Below, piece after piece: positions 45,001 to 51,000 of a DNA stretch of 64,000 nucleotides. The stretch spans positions 2,944,001 to 3,008,000 of the forward strand of contig OY970320.1 of assembly GCA_963716745.1 (NCBI GenBank), given 5' to 3'. The stretch's first letter is position 1. Each line of letters opens with the position of its first letter. The DNA is from an uncultured Gemmatimonadaceae bacterium (GTDB lineage Bacteria > Gemmatimonadota > Gemmatimonadetes > Gemmatimonadales > Gemmatimonadaceae). The position numbers are program-made.

Positions 45001-48000
45001 ACGTGTCACGGCAGCGGCGCGGCGCCAGGCGCGAAGATGAGCACGTGCCCCGAGTGCAATGGACGCGGCACCATTCTCGTTCGGTCAGGGTGGATTCGCG
45101 GTGAACCGGCCGTGCCCCCGCTGTCTGGGCAGAGGCCAGGTGCCGAGCGAGGCGTGCAAGACGTGCGGCGGAAGCGGCGAAGTGCGCGCGAAGAAAACGA
45201 TCAAGGTCGCGGTGCCGCCGGGCGCCGACAGCGGCATGAAGATCAGGCTCGCGGGGCAGGGCGGCCGCGGGAACGCGGGCGGGCCGGCGGGTGATATGTT
45301 CGTGAATCTCACCGTGCAGCCGGACCGGTTCTACAAGCGCGAGGCGCTCGATCTCATCGCGACCGTGCCGCTGAACATCGCGCAAGCGACGCTCGGATCG
45401 AAGGTGAGCGTGAAGACGCTGCACGCGAAGAAGGTGACGATCAAGATCCCGCCCGGCACGCCGGCAGGAAAGCGGTTTAGGGTGCGAGGGCAGGGGATCG
45501 AGCACAATGGGGTGATGGGGGATCTCATCGTGGAAGTCAGGATCATCGTGCCGGAGAAGCTCTCGCCGGAGCAGGAGAAGCTCATGCAGGAGTTCGCAGC
45601 CGCCGGCGGGCTCAAGTACTAGAGGCGTTAGTCGAACCGCTGACGGCGGGGTTGGTACCGCTGACGGCGCGTAGCGTTGGCGTTGGGTACTGCGAAACCT
45701 GAGTAGGGCGCGCCTCCCAACGCCAACGCTACGTACGCCCCTCGCGGTACCGGCCCCGCCGTCTGCGGTACGCGGTTCTATCGGAGCTAGTCTGGTGCGA
45801 TAGATTGTAGCCATGGATCGTGCGAAGCGTCACACCGCTGAGCGCCGTGTAGCTCCCGCCGCGGCCCGCGTGCTCGTCCTGAAGGACGCCGACGCGCGGA
45901 ATCCGGGTGTGCCGCTCGATCTCGACATCATCAATGCGATCCGCGTGAACCGGAGCGCGGTGGAGCGCCGAGCGGCGACGATCCCCACCCGGCGCACGGT
46001 GAAGAAGGATTGGCAGGCGGCTTGGCTGCTGCGTGCCATCACGCTCATCGATCTCACCACCCTCGCGGGCGACGACACGCCGAGCAATGTGCGGCGTCTG
46101 TGCGCGAAGGCGCGCGAACCGGTGCGCGACGACATCCTGAACGCCCTCGGCGCGATGCATCTCGGGATCACCGTGGCGGCGGTGTGCGTGTATCACGAGC
46201 TGGTGGGCGTCGCGGTCGCCGCGCTCACCGGCAGCGACATTCCGGTCGCGGCGGTGAGCGCGGGGTTCCCGGCGGGGTTGAGTCCCTTCAGTACGCGCCT
46301 CGCGGAGATCAAGGCGAGCGTCGCGGCGGGCGCCCAGGAGATCGACATCGTGATCACGCGCGCGCATGTGCTCACGGGCGACTGGGACTCATTGTACGAT
46401 GAGGTGCGCACGTTCCGCGACGCCTGCGGCGATGCGCACCTCAAGGCGATCCTCGCCACGGGCGAACTCGCGACGCTCACGAATGTCGCGCGCGCGAGCC
46501 GAGTGGCGATGATGGCGGGCGCCGACTTCATCAAGACGAGCACCGGCAAGGAGAGCGTGAATGCGACGCTGCCCTTCGGCGTCGTGATGGCGCGCCAGAT
46601 CCGCGAGTATCACGAGAGCACGGGCGTCGCCGTGGGCTTCAAGCCGGCAGGCGGGATCCGCACGGCCAAGAACGCGACGGACTGGATGATCCTCATGAAG
46701 GAAGAGCTCGGCGACGAATGGCTGCGCCCTAAATTGTTCCGTCTGGGTGCCAGTTCGCTGCTCACCGACATCGAACGTCAGCTCGAGCACGCGGCCACGG
46801 GGCGCTACGCCGCCGCGTATCGCATGCCAATGGTCTGACCGTGACATCACTCCGGAGAGTGCGCGCATGACCGTCGCCGAGATCTTCGAGACGATGACCT
46901 ACGGCCCCGCGCCGGAGAGCGCGAAGCCCGCGCTCGACTGGATCGCGGCGCACGGCGGCGAGTTCGGTCATTTCATCGGCGGGAAGTTCACGCGGGCCAA
47001 AGGCGGCAAGCTTTTCGCGACGATGAATCCCGCGACCGGCAAACCGCTCGCGCGCATCGCGCAGGGCACCGCGAGCGACGTGAACGCCGCGGTGAAGGCG
47101 GCTCGCGCGGCGTATCCCGCGTGGAGCAAGCTGCCGGGGCACGAGCGCGCGCGGCATCTGTACGCGCTCGCGCGCGCGGTGCAGAAGAATTCGCGGTTGC
47201 TCGCGGTGCTGGAGAGCCTCGACAACGGCAAGCCGATCCGCGAGACGCGCGACTTGGACATTCCACTCGTGGCCCGGCACTTCTACCACCACGCGGGCTG
47301 GGCGCAGCTCATGGAGAGCGAGTTCGCCGGCTACGGCTCGCTCGGCGTGGTGGGGCAGATCATCCCGTGGAATTTCCCGCTGCTCATGCTCGCGTGGAAG
47401 GTCGCGCCGGCGCTCGCGGCGGGGAACACGAGCGTGCTGAAGCCGGCGGAATTCACGCCGCTCACCGCGCTGTGCTTCGCCGAGCTCGCGGCGCGCGCGG
47501 GGTTGCCGCCGGGCGTGCTCAACATCGTGACCGGCGACGGTGAGACCGGCGCCGCGCTGGTTGACGCGGATGTCGACAAGATCGCGTTCACGGGTTCCAC
47601 CGAGGTGGGCCGCGTGATCCGGCGCGCGACCGCTGGGTCGGGCAAGAAGCTCTCGCTCGAGCTGGGCGGCAAGAGTCCGTTCATCGTGTTCGAGGATGCG
47701 GATCTCGATAGCGTCGTCGAGGGCGTGGTGGATGCGATCTGGTTCAACCAGGGGCAGGTGTGCTGCGCCGGCTCGCGGCTGCTCGTGCAAGAAGGGATCG
47801 CCGAGCGTCTCACCGACAAGCTGCGCGCGCGCATGGAGAAACTCCGCGTCGGCTCGCCGCTGGACAAAGCGGTGGACATGGGCGCGATCGTGGCGCCGGT
47901 GCAGTTGGAGCGCATTCGCACTCTGGTCGCGAAGGGCATCGAGGAAGGCGCCGAGATGTGGCAGCCGAGCTGGGCGGTGCCCAAGGAGGGCAGCTTCTAT

Positions 48001-51000
48001 CCGCCGACGCTGTTCACCGAGGTCGCGCCGAGCAGCACGATCGCGCAGGTGGAGATCTTCGGTCCCGTGCTCGTGAGCATGACGTTCCGCACGCCCGAGG
48101 AAGCGGTCGCCCTCGCGAACAACACGCCATTCGGCCTCGCGTCCAGCGTGTGGACCGAGAACATCAATCTCGCGCTCGACATCGCGCCGAAGATCAAAGC
48201 GGGTGTCGTCTGGGTGAACTGCACGAACATGTTCGACGCTGCTGCGGGATTCGGTGGGTATCGGGAGTCGGGATTCGGGCGGGAAGGTGGGCGCGAGGGG
48301 ATGTACGAATACGTGAAGCAAGAGCGGGCTGTCGGCCGTCGGCTGTCGCCTGCCAAACGCCTGCCTGCGACAGCCGACAGCCGACAGCCCGCCGTCGACC
48401 GCACTCCGAAGCTCTTCATCGGCGGCAAGCAGGCTCGCCCGGACTCGGGTTATTCGCGGATCGTGAAGGGCGCGGGCGGTCGCGCGATCGGCGAAGTCGG
48501 AGAGGGCAACCGGAAGGATATTCGGAACGCCGTGGAGGCCGCGCATGCGGCCAGCGGTGCGTGGGCGCGCGCCACCGGGCATGCGCGGGCGCAGATCTTG
48601 TACTACATCGCCGAGAATCTCTCCGTGCGCGCAGGAGAATTCGCAGCGCGGATCGAGCAGATGACGGGGAAGGGCGGGGGCGCGGCCGAGGTCGAGGCGA
48701 GCATTGCGCGGCTGTTCACGTATGCCGCGTGGGCCGACAAGTGGGATGGCGCCGTGCATTCCGTACCGATCCGCGGCGTGGCGATGGCGATGAACGAGCC
48801 GATCGGCGTGATCGGTGTTGGCGCGCCGGAGCTCCCTCCCCTCCTGGGCTTCATCTCTCTCGTTGCGCCGCTCGTGGCGACCGGCAACACGGTGGTCGCC
48901 GTGCCGAGCGAGGAATATCCGCTGGCCGCGACGGACTTCTATTCGGTGCTAGAGACCAGCGACGTGCCGGCGGGCGTCATTAACATCGTGACCGGCGCGA
49001 AGGACGCGCTGAGTTTCGTGCTGGCCGAGCACGATGATGTGGACGGCGTGTGGTACCGGGGAACTCGCGATGGCGCGACCGCGATCGAGAAGGCGAGCGC
49101 ATCGAACATGAAACGCACGTCTTGCGAATGGAAGCCGCGCGACTGGACGAACGACGGCGAAGGGCGGGAGTTCCTGCGAAGTGCGACGCAGGTGAAGAAT
49201 ATTTGGATTCCGTATGGGGAGTAACTAACGACGCGGGACTCGGGACTCGGGACTCGCCGCGGGATTCGAAATGCGCGACAGAGGCTCCCCGGCTGTTCAC
49301 GAGTCCCGCGGCGAGTCCCGAGTCCCGAATCCCGCGTCGTTCAGTGGATCTCCAGCACCATCACCACCGGCCGATGCAGCGCCGCCCCCGGCGTCACGGT
49401 GCCGTCCGGCGCGAAGCGATCCCAGCCCGATGTCGCGATGAAGTAGAACTTGTCGCCCACCATTACACCGTGATTCGGCTCGTTCAGCACGGGGAGATTC
49501 GCGGCAAGCGTCGACCACTTCTCGATCTTGGTCATTCCGCGATCGAGATCCAGCCGGATCACGCGGTCGAGCGGGAGTCCATTCTGGATCGCGATCAATG
49601 AATGCCCCGCCATCGCCATGCCGTCGATGCCGTTGATCGCGGCGTGCGCATCGTTCTCCAGCCACGTCACCTTGCCGGTCGCGCGATCCACGACGGCGAT
49701 CCCCTTGATATAGTCGGCCACGAAGAGCCGTTTGCCGTCCGCCGCGGCCACGGGCTGCTGTGGGTTCGGGAAGATCCCCGGCGGCACGAGCTGCTCCAAC
49801 GAATCGCGCCCCTCGCGGATCACGTACACGCCGCCGCCGGTCGCGTCGCTCGTGAACACGTCGCCGTTCTTCGCGACGGTGAGATCGCCGAACACATGAT
49901 CGGCGCTGTCGTCCGCCAGATCATAGCTGCGCATGAGCAACCCAGTTGTGAGATTCAGACGCAGCACGGCGCTGCTGCCCGAATCGCCCGGCGCCAGCGC
50001 GAACGCCTCGGGCATGCCGGCGGTGGTGGCCCAGAGCGAGTGCCGCGCAGCATCCACGTCGAGGCCCATCATCGCCATCACGCTGTCGCGCGCCGGCGGA
50101 ACGAAGTCGCTCCACTGCCCGCCTTGCCGCACGATGACCTTCCGTTCGCGAATGCTGCTCAAGAAGAAGCGTCGCGTCGTCGAGTCATACGCAATGTCCT
50201 CGGCGACGAACTCGCTGTCGGGCACCGTGAACGCTGTCACCGGATGGCCCACGGCTTCGCGATTCTTCGCGATGCGCGCGAGCAACTCTTTCCACCCGGG
50301 AGCGCCGCGCACCGGTGCGAGCAATGAATCGGCATCCATATCCTTCACGAGCCCCGTGGCTGCGTACATCTTGAGCCACTTCATCGCGCCCGCCGTGTCA
50401 TGCATCTGCGCATCCGCGCGTGCCTGCGCGATCATGGTACTCGGAAAACCGTTCAGTTCCTTGTAGAGCACCTCGGCGTAGTGCCGGTACGCTTTCCAGT
50501 CGCCGTGCACGCGCGCCGAGTCTCCCGCCGCGCTTCGCTCGCGCCAGGTGGAATCCCCCTGCGCGCTCGCTGATACAACCGCGAGCGCAACACCGAAGGC
50601 GACAGCCGACAGCCGACAGCCGACACTCGAGATCATTCCTCCCTCCCTGCGGCGAGTCTGTCCAGATCGTCCGCCGCATTCTGCGCGCGGTCGAGCAACT
50701 GCGAGATCGTGTCCAAGACGTTGCCACCGCCGTGCAGCCGCAGCAAGCCGAGGCGGATCGTCTCGAGCGCGGCGACGGTCGTCCCCAGTTCGCGCTTGGC
50801 CTCGTCGCGGCGCTCGGCGAGCCGCGCGTACTCGAGCTCGCCACCGGGCGTCCGGCCGTCGCGCGCGAGCAGCGCCGACAGATTGTCGCCGTTCATCCGG
50901 ATGCTCGCGGCGCGCGCTTCGAGGCGCTTCACCACGTCGGGGATGTCGCCGAGCTGTTTGCGCTGGTCCTTTGGCAGGGTCTCGTAGAGCTCGAGCGCCG

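What a model noticed while it worked through the whole genome (the two positions that open the first line are those of the whole stretch)
45813..49224. ALDH16 (an aldehyde dehydrogenase family of unknown role) sits in an operon with an animal-type deoxyribose-phosphate al [...]
g03041 (DeoC/DERA, 341 aa) and g03042 (785 aa) are adjacent and co-directional (28-nt gap). g03042 is a full-length, catalytically complete orthologue of the only characterised bacterial ALDH16 (Loktanella, PDB 6MVR), a family whose physiological substrate is unknown and whose human member ALDH16A1 is a gout-linked pseudoenzyme; g03041 is far closer to human DERA (63% over the whole length) than to classical bacterial DeoC (40%). 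Of 388 species genomes with both a DUF1487-type ALDH16 and DeoC, 346 (89%) have them within two genes. The simplest reading is that bacterial ALDH16 oxidises the aldehyde released by DERA (acetaldehyde from deoxyribose 5-phosphate), i.e. it belongs to deoxynucleosid [...]
Evidence so far: Swiss-Prot best hits: DERA_HUMAN 63.2% over residues 28-340, Vibrio DeoC 39.6%, ALDH16A1 38%; phmmer vs PDB: 6MVR_A E=0, 1025 bits, residues 1-784 to 2-766, ELGGKSP and QGQVCCAGSR boxes kept; neighbours.tsv: DeoC-DUF1487 near in 346 of 388 genomes with both, DeoC-Aldedh near in 609 of 1362 Gemmatimonadales. The ALDH16-specific C-terminal domain finds >=63%-identical copies in 17 of 25 Gemmatimonadales genomes searched, G000 included. 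In 8 of 8 relatives checked (7 genera, 3 families) a DERA gene (73-96% identical) ends 10-115 nt before the ALDH16 gene (66-92%) on the same strand. A 2025 review (PMC12041015, Aldh16 passages read) gives only in-vitro activity on hexanal and no physiological ro [...]
(Added by a program. Inside this text positions count along the whole contig: contig position 2,944,001 is position 1 of the stretch shown here. "Call 12" and the like, gene names such as g00115 and contig names such as C1 are that model's own, and its searches are not shown. The text may have been shortened before it was handed on; [...] marks where a part breaks off. The agent that wrote the report below was given it as the finding of a first reader that could run no searches.)

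Follow-up and report, generated by a model that had tools for sequence, protein, structure and literature searches.

The report
ALDH16 partners deoxyribose-phosphate aldolase
ALDH16, an enzyme family of unknown role whose human member is linked to gout, is encoded next to, sometimes fused with, and probably bound to the enzyme that splits deoxyribose phosphate, so it most likely removes the acetaldehyde made when DNA sugars are broken down.

Summary
A 341-aa long-type DERA (45813-46838) is followed after 28 nt by a 785-aa ALDH16 with an intact catalytic triad (46867-49224).

The link goes well beyond gene order:
- In 65 of 69 evaluable ALDH16 loci from seven phyla, a same-strand DERA lies directly upstream.
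- Of 61 Gemmatimonadales genomes, 32 have both genes, 27 neither, 2 only one.
- Natural DERA-ALDH16 fusion proteins exist. One was verified as a single open frame. On a tree they fall in three places.
- In other phyla ALDH16 sits inside deo operons, between deoC and deoD, deoA or a deoxyribokinase-like gene.
- The substrate pocket matches acetaldehyde-oxidising ALDH2.
- A complex model scores 0.90 against 0.01 for the best control. It joins the ALDH16-specific N-terminal peptide to the extension that sets long-type DERA apart from E. coli DeoC.
- Human data already pair the two proteins. hu.MAP 2.0 lists a two-member complex ALDH16A1+DERA, and DERA is one of eight preys in a 2025 ALDH16A1 co-IP. 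Neither paper's main text mentions the pair.

Best reading: an aldolase-dehydrogenase couple for deoxyribose-5-phosphate catabolism, with ALDH16 oxidising acetaldehyde. No held paper states this. Enzyme assays are still needed.

The parts
45623..45812 (.). Intergenic REP-like palindromic element between dnaJ and DERA. It marks the upstream boundary of the two-gene unit.
   Evidence: Folds at -123 kcal/mol, z = -9.3. Its 18-nt stem has 26 matches with up to 2 mismatches in the genome, against 0 for the reversed control.
45813..46838 (+). Long-type (animal-type) deoxyribose-phosphate aldolase, 341 aa. The first 27 residues are not conserved, so the true start may lie further in.
   Evidence: Translation. 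TIGR00126 at 150.3 bits, cut-off 117.3. 60% identity to a bird DERA domain. D178, K241 and K277 are invariant in 60 orthologues.
45894..46034 (+). DERA N-terminal extension (residues 28-74, including the WQAAWLLRA helix). It is absent from E. coli DeoC and is the core of the predicted ALDH16-binding surface.
   Evidence: E. coli DeoC aligns only from residue 71. Interface residues 44-74. Q68, A69 and W71 are invariant.
46122..46166 (+). Insertion specific to long-type DERA (about residues 104-118). Part of the predicted interface (112-117).
   Evidence: 14-residue gap in E. coli DeoC at this place. Interface list.
46839..46866 (+). 28-nt spacer with GGAGAG before the ALDH16 ATG. No terminator-like site.
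   Evidence: Sequence read. No terminator-like sites in 45200-49700.
46867..49224 (+). ALDH16, 785 aa, catalytically complete.
   Evidence: 6MVR_A at 1025 bits, full length. PF00171 at 643.9 bits.
46867..46914 (+). ALDH16-specific N-terminal peptide (residues 1-16, MTVAEIFETMTYGPAP). It lies outside the ALDH fold and is predicted to dock on DERA.
   Evidence: The Pfam ALDH match starts at residue 43. G13, A15 and E17 are invariant. Lowest-error contacts in the model. The motif is kept in platypus ALDH16A1.
46972..48324 (+). ALDH catalytic module (residues 36-486) with the triad N169 (47371-47373), E265 (47659-47661) and C299 (47761-47763).
   Evidence: Alignment to ALDH2 and 6MVR. The triad is invariant in 60 orthologues.
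48397..49221 (+). ALDH16-specific C-terminal domain (residues 511-785), a degenerate copy of the NAD-binding half of an ALDH.
   Evidence: Aligns to 6MVR 500-766. Weak internal match to the N-terminal ALDH module (domain 2). 12636 library hits at E <= 0.001.

Best explanation
The two genes form an operon encoding an aldolase-dehydrogenase couple for the last steps of deoxyribose and deoxynucleoside catabolism.

Nucleoside phosphorylases and phosphopentomutase, encoded elsewhere in this genome, supply 2-deoxyribose 5-phosphate. In other lineages a deoxyribokinase-like kinase encoded in the same operon does this. DERA cleaves the sugar phosphate into glyceraldehyde 3-phosphate and acetaldehyde. 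ALDH16 oxidises the acetaldehyde to acetate, probably with NAD+, and an Acs-like enzyme can then activate the acetate.

The two proteins most likely work as a physical complex. The conserved N-terminal peptide of ALDH16 is predicted to dock on the N-terminal extension and insertion that set long-type DERA apart from E. coli DeoC. This would remove a toxic, enzyme-inactivating product at its source and pull the reversible aldol cleavage forward.

Shown: gene order, co-occurrence, fusions, operon contexts, conserved catalytic and pocket residues. Inferred: the substrate, the cofactor, the complex in bacteria, and any channelling.
For: 1. A same-strand DERA lies directly upstream in 65 of 69 evaluable ALDH16 loci from Gemmatimonadota, Chloroflexota, Acidobacteriota, Pseudomonadota, Myxococcota, Bacteroidota and Limnochordales. 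The gap is 3-253 nt in 62 loci.
2. All 4 exceptions encode the same DERA type elsewhere in the genome.
3. Of 61 Gemmatimonadales genomes, 32 have both genes, 27 neither, 1 only ALDH16 (at a contig edge) and 1 only a divergent DERA.
4. Six full-length DERA-ALDH16 fusion proteins were found. One was verified as a single frame on contig L088. Several recur on separate contigs. The fusion label needs at least 3 changes on the ALDH16 tree.
5. ALDH16 lies inside deo-type operons:
   - PyNP-DERA-ALDH16-PNP in three Flavobacteriaceae loci;
   - DeoR-DERA-ALDH16-RbsD-PfkB in Ensifer, and the same genes without a detected DeoR in Bradyrhizobium and Paraburkholderia;
   - regulator-DERA-ALDH16-Bmp/PnrA-ABC in a gammaproteobacterium.
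6. The same DERA type is also fused to phosphopentomutase-type domains.
7. Pocket residues aligned to ALDH2 F170, L173, M174, W177, F296, F459 and F465 are conserved. The triad is invariant.
8. The genome holds deoB, a pyrimidine-nucleoside phosphorylase, two PNP-family genes and an Acs-like gene.
9. Complex model: ipSAE 0.90 against 0.01 for the best of 3 controls. That mark was reached by 116 of 157 solved complexes and 2 of 215 mismatched pairs. The runs share at least 97% of contacts and the partner's pLDDT is at least 92. My own alignments were used, so those counts hold only roughly.
10. Human data:
   - hu.MAP 2.0 complex HuMAP2_03576 consists of ALDH16A1 and DERA, confidence class 2 of 5;
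   - DERA is one of 8 preys in an ALDH16A1 co-IP-MS.
Against: - No enzyme assay with acetaldehyde is available. The only in-vitro activity I could read about for the Loktanella enzyme is with hexanal and similar medium-chain aldehydes (review PMC12041015, passages).
- The genome has about seven other ALDH-superfamily genes that could also take acetaldehyde.
- Four Chloroflexota genomes keep the two genes apart.
- At least 5 metagenome loci have a long-type DERA with no ALDH16 in the 886-3988 nt available downstream.
- The complex model used ALDH16 cut at residue 495. In the whole protein the N-terminal peptide might pack on its own C-terminal domain instead.
- The predicted DERA surface includes the N-terminal extension and an insertion just before the AVCVYH segment that I take to be strand beta2. 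Assuming the usual barrel topology, that puts it on the side away from the catalytic face. The tool gives no coordinates, so I could not check this. A closed tunnel is therefore not indicated.
- DERA interface residues are no better conserved in a bird DERA than the rest of the protein: 55% against 60%.
- The human co-IP hit is a single peptide.
- No transcript data were available for the window.
Confidence: 0.7

Rival explanations
1. ALDH16 is a broad-range scavenger of medium-chain or lipid-derived aldehydes. It is co-regulated with DERA, for example under nutrient or stress conditions, but does not act on the DERA product.
For: The reported in-vitro activity of the Loktanella enzyme is with hexanal-type aldehydes (PMC12041015, passages). 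The hydrophobic aromatic pocket would also accept such substrates.
Against: A scavenger would not be expected to be fused to DERA repeatedly. Nor would it be lost and gained together with DERA, or placed between deoC and deoD or deoK. From recall, ALDH2, which has the same pocket residues, takes both acetaldehyde and hexanal.
Confidence: 0.1
2. ALDH16 oxidises the other DERA product, glyceraldehyde 3-phosphate, or unphosphorylated glyceraldehyde, in the manner of a non-phosphorylating GapN.
For: G3P is made in equal amount by DERA, and GapN enzymes belong to the same superfamily.
Against: The positions aligned to ALDH2 M124, C301 and F459 are L134, V298 and F456 in ALDH16. From recall, these are where GapN carries its phosphate-binding arginines. 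The closest solved relatives outside the family are ALDH2 and ALDH1, not GapN. G3P already has a route into glycolysis.
Confidence: 0.05
3. The main role of ALDH16 is structural or regulatory: a stabilising or controlling subunit of DERA. Catalysis is secondary in bacteria and dispensable, as in the vertebrate pseudoenzyme.
For: Vertebrate ALDH16A1 has lost the triad but keeps the N-terminal motif. It still pairs with DERA in human proteomics. The predicted interface is largely made of family-specific extensions.
Against: N169, E265 and C299 are invariant in 60 bacterial orthologues and kept in the fusions, so catalysis is under selection in bacteria.
Confidence: 0.1

Closest known systems
Loktanella sp. 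ALDH16 (PDB 6MVR/6MVS/6MVT/6MVU)
   Same: Full-length homologue: 1025 bits, residues 1-784 to 2-766. It has the same N-terminal peptide, triad and C-terminal domain. Rhodobacteraceae ALDH16s that are closer to 6MVR (1198 and 1233 bits) also have DERA directly upstream.
   Different: Different phylum. The literature I could read gives this enzyme no physiological substrate or partner. The Loktanella gene context itself was not checked here.
Vertebrate ALDH16A1 (gout-associated pseudoenzyme)
   Same: Same two-module architecture, 39% identity end to end, and the N-terminal motif is kept (DIFSTLEFGPVPES in platypus). Paired with DERA in hu.MAP 2.0 and in a co-IP-MS.
   Different: N169, E265 and the Cys box are lost, so it cannot oxidise aldehydes. 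The published partners are HPRT1, maspardin and thioredoxin.
E. coli deoCABD and Salmonella deoK-type deoxyribose pathways
   Same: Same chemistry up to G3P plus acetaldehyde. The same neighbours (deoA-, deoD- and deoK-like genes, DeoR-type regulators) occur around the pair in other phyla.
   Different: E. coli DeoC is the short type, lacking the N-terminal extension and the 14-residue insertion. From recall, no aldehyde dehydrogenase is part of those operons.
DmpFG/BphIJ-type aldolase-dehydrogenase complexes
   Same: Same logic: an aldolase releases acetaldehyde, and a dehydrogenase bound to it takes it up.
   Different: From recall, those are class II pyruvate aldolases with CoA-acylating dehydrogenases of another fold, and they make acetyl-CoA. 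Here a class I DERA is paired with a non-acylating ALDH that should make acetate. No tunnel is shown.
SPU bacterial microcompartment (DERA plus encapsulated acylating aldehyde dehydrogenase; PMC11585597, passages read)
   Same: Acetaldehyde from DERA is handed to a dedicated aldehyde dehydrogenase. That DERA also has an N-terminal extension of about 70 residues, used for protein-protein contacts.
   Different: No shell-protein genes were found among the 24 neighbouring ORFs scanned. The dehydrogenase there is CoA-acylating and is not an ALDH16.

Membership tests
ALDH16 (cd07111) | ALDH-superfamily catalytic module | tested here: met
   PF00171 at 643.9 bits, residues 43-484.
ALDH16 (cd07111) | Extra C-terminal domain of about 280 residues, homologous to that of 6MVR | tested here: met
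   One alignment covers residues 1-784 against 6MVR 2-766.
ALDH16 (cd07111) | Catalytic triad Asn/Glu/Cys, as in active bacterial members | tested here: met
   N169, E265 and C299 align to the 6MVR and ALDH2 triad. They are invariant in 60 orthologues.
ALDH16 (cd07111) | Homodimer in which the C-terminal domain mimics a second ALDH protomer | not tested
   No fold or self-complex job was run. Inferred only from the roughly 66% identical 6MVR.
DERA / DeoC (TIGR00126, EC 4.1.2.4) | Equivalog model above its curated cut-off | tested here: met
   150.3 bits against 117.3.
DERA / DeoC (TIGR00126, EC 4.1.2.4) | Schiff-base lysine and its helpers (E. coli D102, K167, K201) | tested here: met
   D178, K241 and K277 align to them and are invariant in 60 orthologues.
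Long (animal-type) DERA subclass | N-terminal extension and internal insertion shared with animal DERA | tested here: met
   60% identity to a bird DERA domain from residue 35. E. coli DeoC lacks residues 28-70 and about 104-117.
DERA / DeoC (TIGR00126, EC 4.1.2.4) | Cleavage of 2-deoxyribose 5-phosphate | not testable with these tools
   Needs an enzyme assay.
DmpFG-type aldolase-dehydrogenase complex | Class II pyruvate aldolase paired with a CoA-acylating dehydrogenase | tested here: not met
   The proteins here are PF01791 (class I DeoC) and PF00171. The pair works like that complex but is not a member.
SPU bacterial microcompartment | Shell-protein genes in the locus | tested here: not met
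   No BMC shell domain among the 24 ORFs of 34781-63643 scanned against Pfam.

The most novel reading that the evidence does not exclude
ALDH16 and DERA form an ancient heteromeric aldolase-dehydrogenase complex conserved from bacteria to humans. The ALDH16 N-terminal peptide and the long-type DERA extension hold it together.

In vertebrates the dehydrogenase died, but ALDH16A1 persists as a DERA-binding subunit. The gout and urate association of ALDH16A1 would then run through deoxyribose-phosphate and purine-nucleoside catabolism, rather than (or as well as) through HPRT1.
Probability: 0.3. Interest if true: 0.9.

Novelty: new variant of a known kind. Interest (0 to 1): 0.8.

Why it matters
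Reviews from 2021 to 2025 say the physiological role of ALDH16 is unknown (passages read). Its human member is a gout-linked pseudoenzyme with no agreed function.

The evidence here gives the bacterial enzymes a concrete, testable job: removing acetaldehyde for DERA. It also gives them a concrete partner. It explains two previously unexplained sequence features, the ALDH16 N-terminal peptide and the animal-type extension of DERA. It connects these to human proteomics records that pair ALDH16A1 with DERA but are not mentioned in the main text of the papers carrying them. That turns the question of what ALDH16A1 does into a direct experiment on DERA.

For biocatalysis, DERA is limited by acetaldehyde inactivation (recalled). 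A natural acetaldehyde-removing partner or fusion could therefore be useful.

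Tried and rejected
**Papers that could not be read**
- Liu & Tanner 2019 is not held, by DOI or as PMC6376876. Its substrate panel and any remark on gene context remain unread.
- Vasiliou 2013 (PMC3746320) and a BioPlex paper (PMC5531611, id recalled) are not held.
- Four of the five supplement files of Price 2019 are PDFs made of pictures and could not be searched. The search of what is held as text found no occurrences.

**Literature searches (all 10 used)**
- ALDH16 + deoxyribose: 4 irrelevant papers.
- ALDH16A1 + bacteria + DERA: 1 irrelevant paper.
- deoC + aldehyde dehydrogenase + acetaldehyde + operon: 10 papers, none on ALDH16.
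- Two further combinations: 0 papers each.
- DUF1487: 1 irrelevant paper.
- A last combination: 2 SAR11 papers, irrelevant.

**Analyses that gave nothing usable**
- RNA runs: none was listed for the window, so co-transcription could not be tested.
- The promoter and terminator scan gave 1 promoter-like site on the minus strand and 0 terminator-like sites. This is uninformative in a genome of about 67% G+C in this region.
- The first, 20-row C-domain alignment was too diverse for the genome scan. An 8-row one worked.
- A 95-row maximum-likelihood tree did not finish. It was replaced by FastTree on 56 rows.

**Items discounted**
- Seven of the 13 DeoC+ALDH proteins are partial or have overlapping joins. 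These include the one labelled Artemia, whose halves are 68% and 66% identical to the window's proteins. I did not count them as fusions.

Full report
**The observation**

The window holds two co-directional ORFs at the stated places. A 341-aa protein is encoded at 45813-46838 and a 785-aa protein at 46867-49224. The 28 nt between them contain GGAGAG eight bases before the second ATG.

The first protein passes the deoC equivalog model TIGR00126, 150.3 bits against a cut-off of 117.3. It keeps the residues aligned to E. coli D102, K167 and K201, as D178, K241 and K277. It is of the long type:
- E. coli DeoC aligns only from residue 71 and has a 14-residue gap at about residues 104-117.
- A bird DERA domain is 60% identical from residue 35 to 340.

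The second protein aligns over its whole length with the crystallised Loktanella ALDH16 (6MVR_A, 1025 bits, residues 1-784 to 2-766). The ELGGKSP and NQGQVCCAGSR boxes are intact.

Upstream lie cinA, grpE and dnaJ, followed by a 190-nt gap. Downstream, on the other strand, is a Ser/Thr kinase gene. The pair therefore stands alone. The upstream gap is a REP-like palindrome.

**How general the pairing is**

I aligned eight C-terminal domains, the part that only ALDH16 has. With that alignment I scanned one genome for each of about 186,000 species. At least 597 stretches encode a relative, and the best 80 were kept. This means only ALDH16s with 57% or more identity in that domain were sampled.

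Of the 80 loci, 69 could be judged. These have the N-terminus of ALDH16 and at least 300 nt upstream.
- 65 have a DERA of 63-79% identity on the same strand directly upstream. The gap is 3-253 nt in 62 and 538-681 nt in three.
- 4 have none. All 4 are Chloroflexota.
- 10 were cut too short to judge, and one shows only the tail of a DERA at its edge.

By record title, the 65 come from Gemmatimonadota, Chloroflexota, Acidobacteriota, Pseudomonadota (alpha, beta, gamma), Myxococcota, Bacteroidota and Limnochordales.

The four exceptions all encode the same DERA type (68-75% identity) elsewhere in the genome, with no ALDH16 beside it. One of these four genomes, G002, is flagged as unpublished, and that single statement rests on it.

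In a sample of 61 genomes of the window's own order (G000 included):
- 32 have both genes and 27 have neither.
- One has only ALDH16, in a frame that runs off its contig.
- One has only a divergent DERA (52% identity).
- Among the 32 with both, 28 are adjacent, one has about 3.5 kb inserted, and three have the genes on different contigs (at least two of these matches lie at a contig end).

The two genes are therefore inherited and lost as a unit.

**Fusions**

The exhaustive search with the C-terminal domain turned up a 1142-aa protein with DeoC, ALDH and the C-terminal domain in one chain.

I then searched its DERA part among proteins of 628-1999 aa. This gave 25 hits, 13 of which carry both DeoC and ALDH domains.
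- Six are full-length: DERA, then a linker of about 20 residues, then a complete ALDH16.
- The other seven are partial or have overlapping joins, and I set them aside.

One fusion was checked on its DNA. On contig L088 the two parts are in one frame with no stop between them. Several fusions recur on separate contigs and in separate sources, and one is from a Rhodospirillales MAG on a 1.3-Mb contig.

I built a FastTree of 56 ALDH16 rows: 20 of the 60 rows of alignment A4, 29 library representatives, the six fusions, and the window's own protein. On it the fusions sit in three places, and well-supported branches force at least three changes of the label. That could mean three gains, or one gain and two losses.

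The same DERA type is also found fused to phosphopentomutase-type domains. This fits a true deoxyribose-phosphate aldolase.

**Wider operons**

In Gemmatimonadota the pair is bare. Elsewhere it is embedded in recognisable deoxynucleoside or deoxyribose operons:
- Three Flavobacteriaceae loci read pyrimidine-nucleoside phosphorylase, DERA, ALDH16, purine-nucleoside-phosphorylase family.
- Two Myxococcota loci have the pyrimidine-nucleoside phosphorylase right after ALDH16.
- Ensifer reads DeoR, DERA, ALDH16, RbsD/FucU mutarotase, PfkB kinase. Bradyrhizobium and Paraburkholderia have the same genes without a detected DeoR.
- A gammaproteobacterial locus reads SorC-type regulator, DERA, ALDH16, Bmp/PnrA nucleoside-binding protein, ABC ATPase.

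ALDH16 thus sits between deoC and the genes that feed it. A bystander gene would not be expected there.

The window's genome itself has phosphopentomutase, a pyrimidine-nucleoside phosphorylase, two PNP-family genes and an Acs-like gene at other places. Several of them are split between frames, which looks like assembly error.

**Which aldehyde**

Outside its own family, the catalytic module is closest to ALDH2 and ALDH1 (393 bits).

In the alignment to human ALDH2, the residues at ALDH2 positions N169, F170, L173, M174, W177, F296, C302, F459 and F465 are identical. The triad and F170, M174, W177 and F462 are invariant in 60 orthologues. That these positions line the narrow aldehyde tunnel of ALDH2 is my recollection, not a tool result.

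The positions where, again from recall, GapN holds the phosphate of G3P with arginines are L134, V298 and F456 here.

E195, which in ALDH2-type enzymes favours NAD+ (recalled), is present.

So the pocket suits a small uncharged aliphatic aldehyde. Acetaldehyde is the only such product of DERA. The reported hexanal activity of the Loktanella enzyme (PMC12041015, passages) does not conflict with this, but no acetaldehyde measurement was available to me.

Two Rhodobacteraceae ALDH16s that are closer to 6MVR than the window's (1198 and 1233 bits) have DERA directly upstream. The crystallised enzyme therefore belongs to the DERA-linked group.

**Binding**

I folded ALDH16 residues 1-495 with DERA residues 28-341, each with a 60-row alignment. 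The size limit forced the cut.
- The score was 0.90 (runs 0.91, 0.89, 0.90), against 0.01 for the best of three controls.
- That mark was reached by 116 of 157 solved complexes and 2 of 215 mismatched pairs.
- The runs share at least 97% of contacts, and the partner's pLDDT is at least 92.
- Because my own alignments were used, the calibration counts hold only roughly.

The model supports binding but does not show it.

The interface is informative. On ALDH16 it is residues 1-16, a conserved peptide (EIFETMxYGPAPES) that lies outside the ALDH fold, plus patches at 125-129, 277-289, 325-337, 431 and 451-452. On DERA it is residues 44-74 and 112-117, which are the extension and insertion that E. 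coli DeoC lacks, plus 261-304.

I know of no solved DERA-ALDH complex, and none appeared in the PDB searches. The model may, however, have learned from the natural fusions.

Caveats:
- The missing C-terminal domain might be the real partner of the N-terminal peptide.
- The DERA surface appears to be on the side away from the catalytic face. This rests on assumed barrel topology, since no coordinates were available, so a closed tunnel is not indicated.

**The animal proteins**

Platypus ALDH16A1 (named by its sources) is 39% identical end to end. It has lost N169, E265 and the Cys box, but keeps the N-terminal motif as DIFSTLEFGPVPES.

At the modelled interface it is 62% identical (18 of 29 aligned positions), against 43% over residues 1-495. 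For DERA against the bird protein there is no such excess: 55% against 60%.

Two published human data sets pair the proteins:
- The hu.MAP 2.0 complex table lists HuMAP2_03576 with just ALDH16A1 and DERA. Its confidence class is 2 on a 1-5 scale that the paper describes as running from Extremely High to Medium. I take 1 as the top.
- The same table has a class-5 cluster of ten proteins that holds both (PMC8111494, supplement 3).
- The co-IP-MS table of a 2025 ALDH16A1 paper lists nine proteins: the bait, six ribosomal proteins, thioredoxin and DERA. DERA is represented by one peptide, one PSM and 4% coverage (PMC12405490, Supplementary Data 7).

Neither paper mentions the pair in its main text.

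**Comparison with what is known, and novelty**

Both proteins are ordinary members of their families (see the membership table).

The arrangement works like the DmpFG-type aldolase-dehydrogenase complexes. It also resembles the SPU microcompartment, where acetaldehyde from DERA goes to an encapsulated acylating dehydrogenase (PMC11585597, passages). It belongs to neither. The folds differ, no shell genes are present, and the product should be acetate rather than acetyl-CoA.

None of my ten literature searches found a paper that links ALDH16 to DERA or to deoxyribose. The review passages I read call the role of ALDH16 unknown. Two key papers were not readable. The human pairing exists only as table rows.

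I therefore rate this as a new variant of a known kind of system, with a high chance of being right about the module and a lower, still open, chance for the human extension.

**Verdict**

- Confidence that ALDH16 is the acetaldehyde-oxidising partner of DERA in deoxyribose-phosphate catabolism: 0.7.
- Interest: 0.8.

Noticed in passing
window 44497-45622: dnaJ is split into two overlapping ORFs in different frames: 44497-45294 (J domain and the start of the zinc finger) and 45059-45622 (the rest). This is probably an indel error in the assembly.
   Followed up: partly
window 45623-45812: A 190-nt intergenic palindrome (-123 kcal/mol, z = -9.3) belongs to a genome-wide repeat family. Its 18-nt stem has 26 matches with up to 2 mismatches, against 0 for the reversed control, and the matches often occur as inverted pairs about 30-50 nt apart.
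   Followed up: partly
G000:C1:80407-81518; 1538059-1539911; 363936-365264; 743800-745202: Phosphopentomutase, an Acs-like gene and two further ALDH genes are each broken across two or three frames. The genome is a single contig at 89.8% completeness, which suggests many frameshift errors. DERA and ALDH16 are intact.
   Followed up: no
L172 (G038:C30:210500-217000), ORFs 1400-2455, 2458-3990, 3813-4853: A split form in two sister genera: DERA, then a 510-aa ALDH catalytic module with a related N-terminal motif (LIFGDLWEYDPAPE), then a separate ORF for the ALDH16 C-terminal domain. Stand-alone C-domain proteins of about 280-300 aa also appear among the library representatives.
   Followed up: partly
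proteins P0277, P0294, P0295: Long-type DERA fused to phosphopentomutase-type domains: PF01676 in P0277, and PGM/PMM-type domains in P0294 and P0295. This is a second kind of Rosetta-stone fusion within the same pathway.
   Followed up: no
L174 (G036:C7:103000-108000): The one genome of the order with DERA but no ALDH16 has a 52%-identical DERA inside a 698-aa open frame. It may be fused to something else.
   Followed up: no
L030:37-729 and L023:3471-3974: In two of the four Chloroflexota loci where ALDH16 is not next to DERA, nucleotide-related genes lie upstream on the same strand: SurE 5'-nucleotidase family in L030 and a NUDIX hydrolase in L023.
   Followed up: no
L173 (G023:C18:16500-24500): In one relative, about 3.5 kb has been inserted between DERA and ALDH16. 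It encodes a beta-lactamase-family protein with a Big_2 domain and a CopD-like membrane protein.
   Followed up: partly
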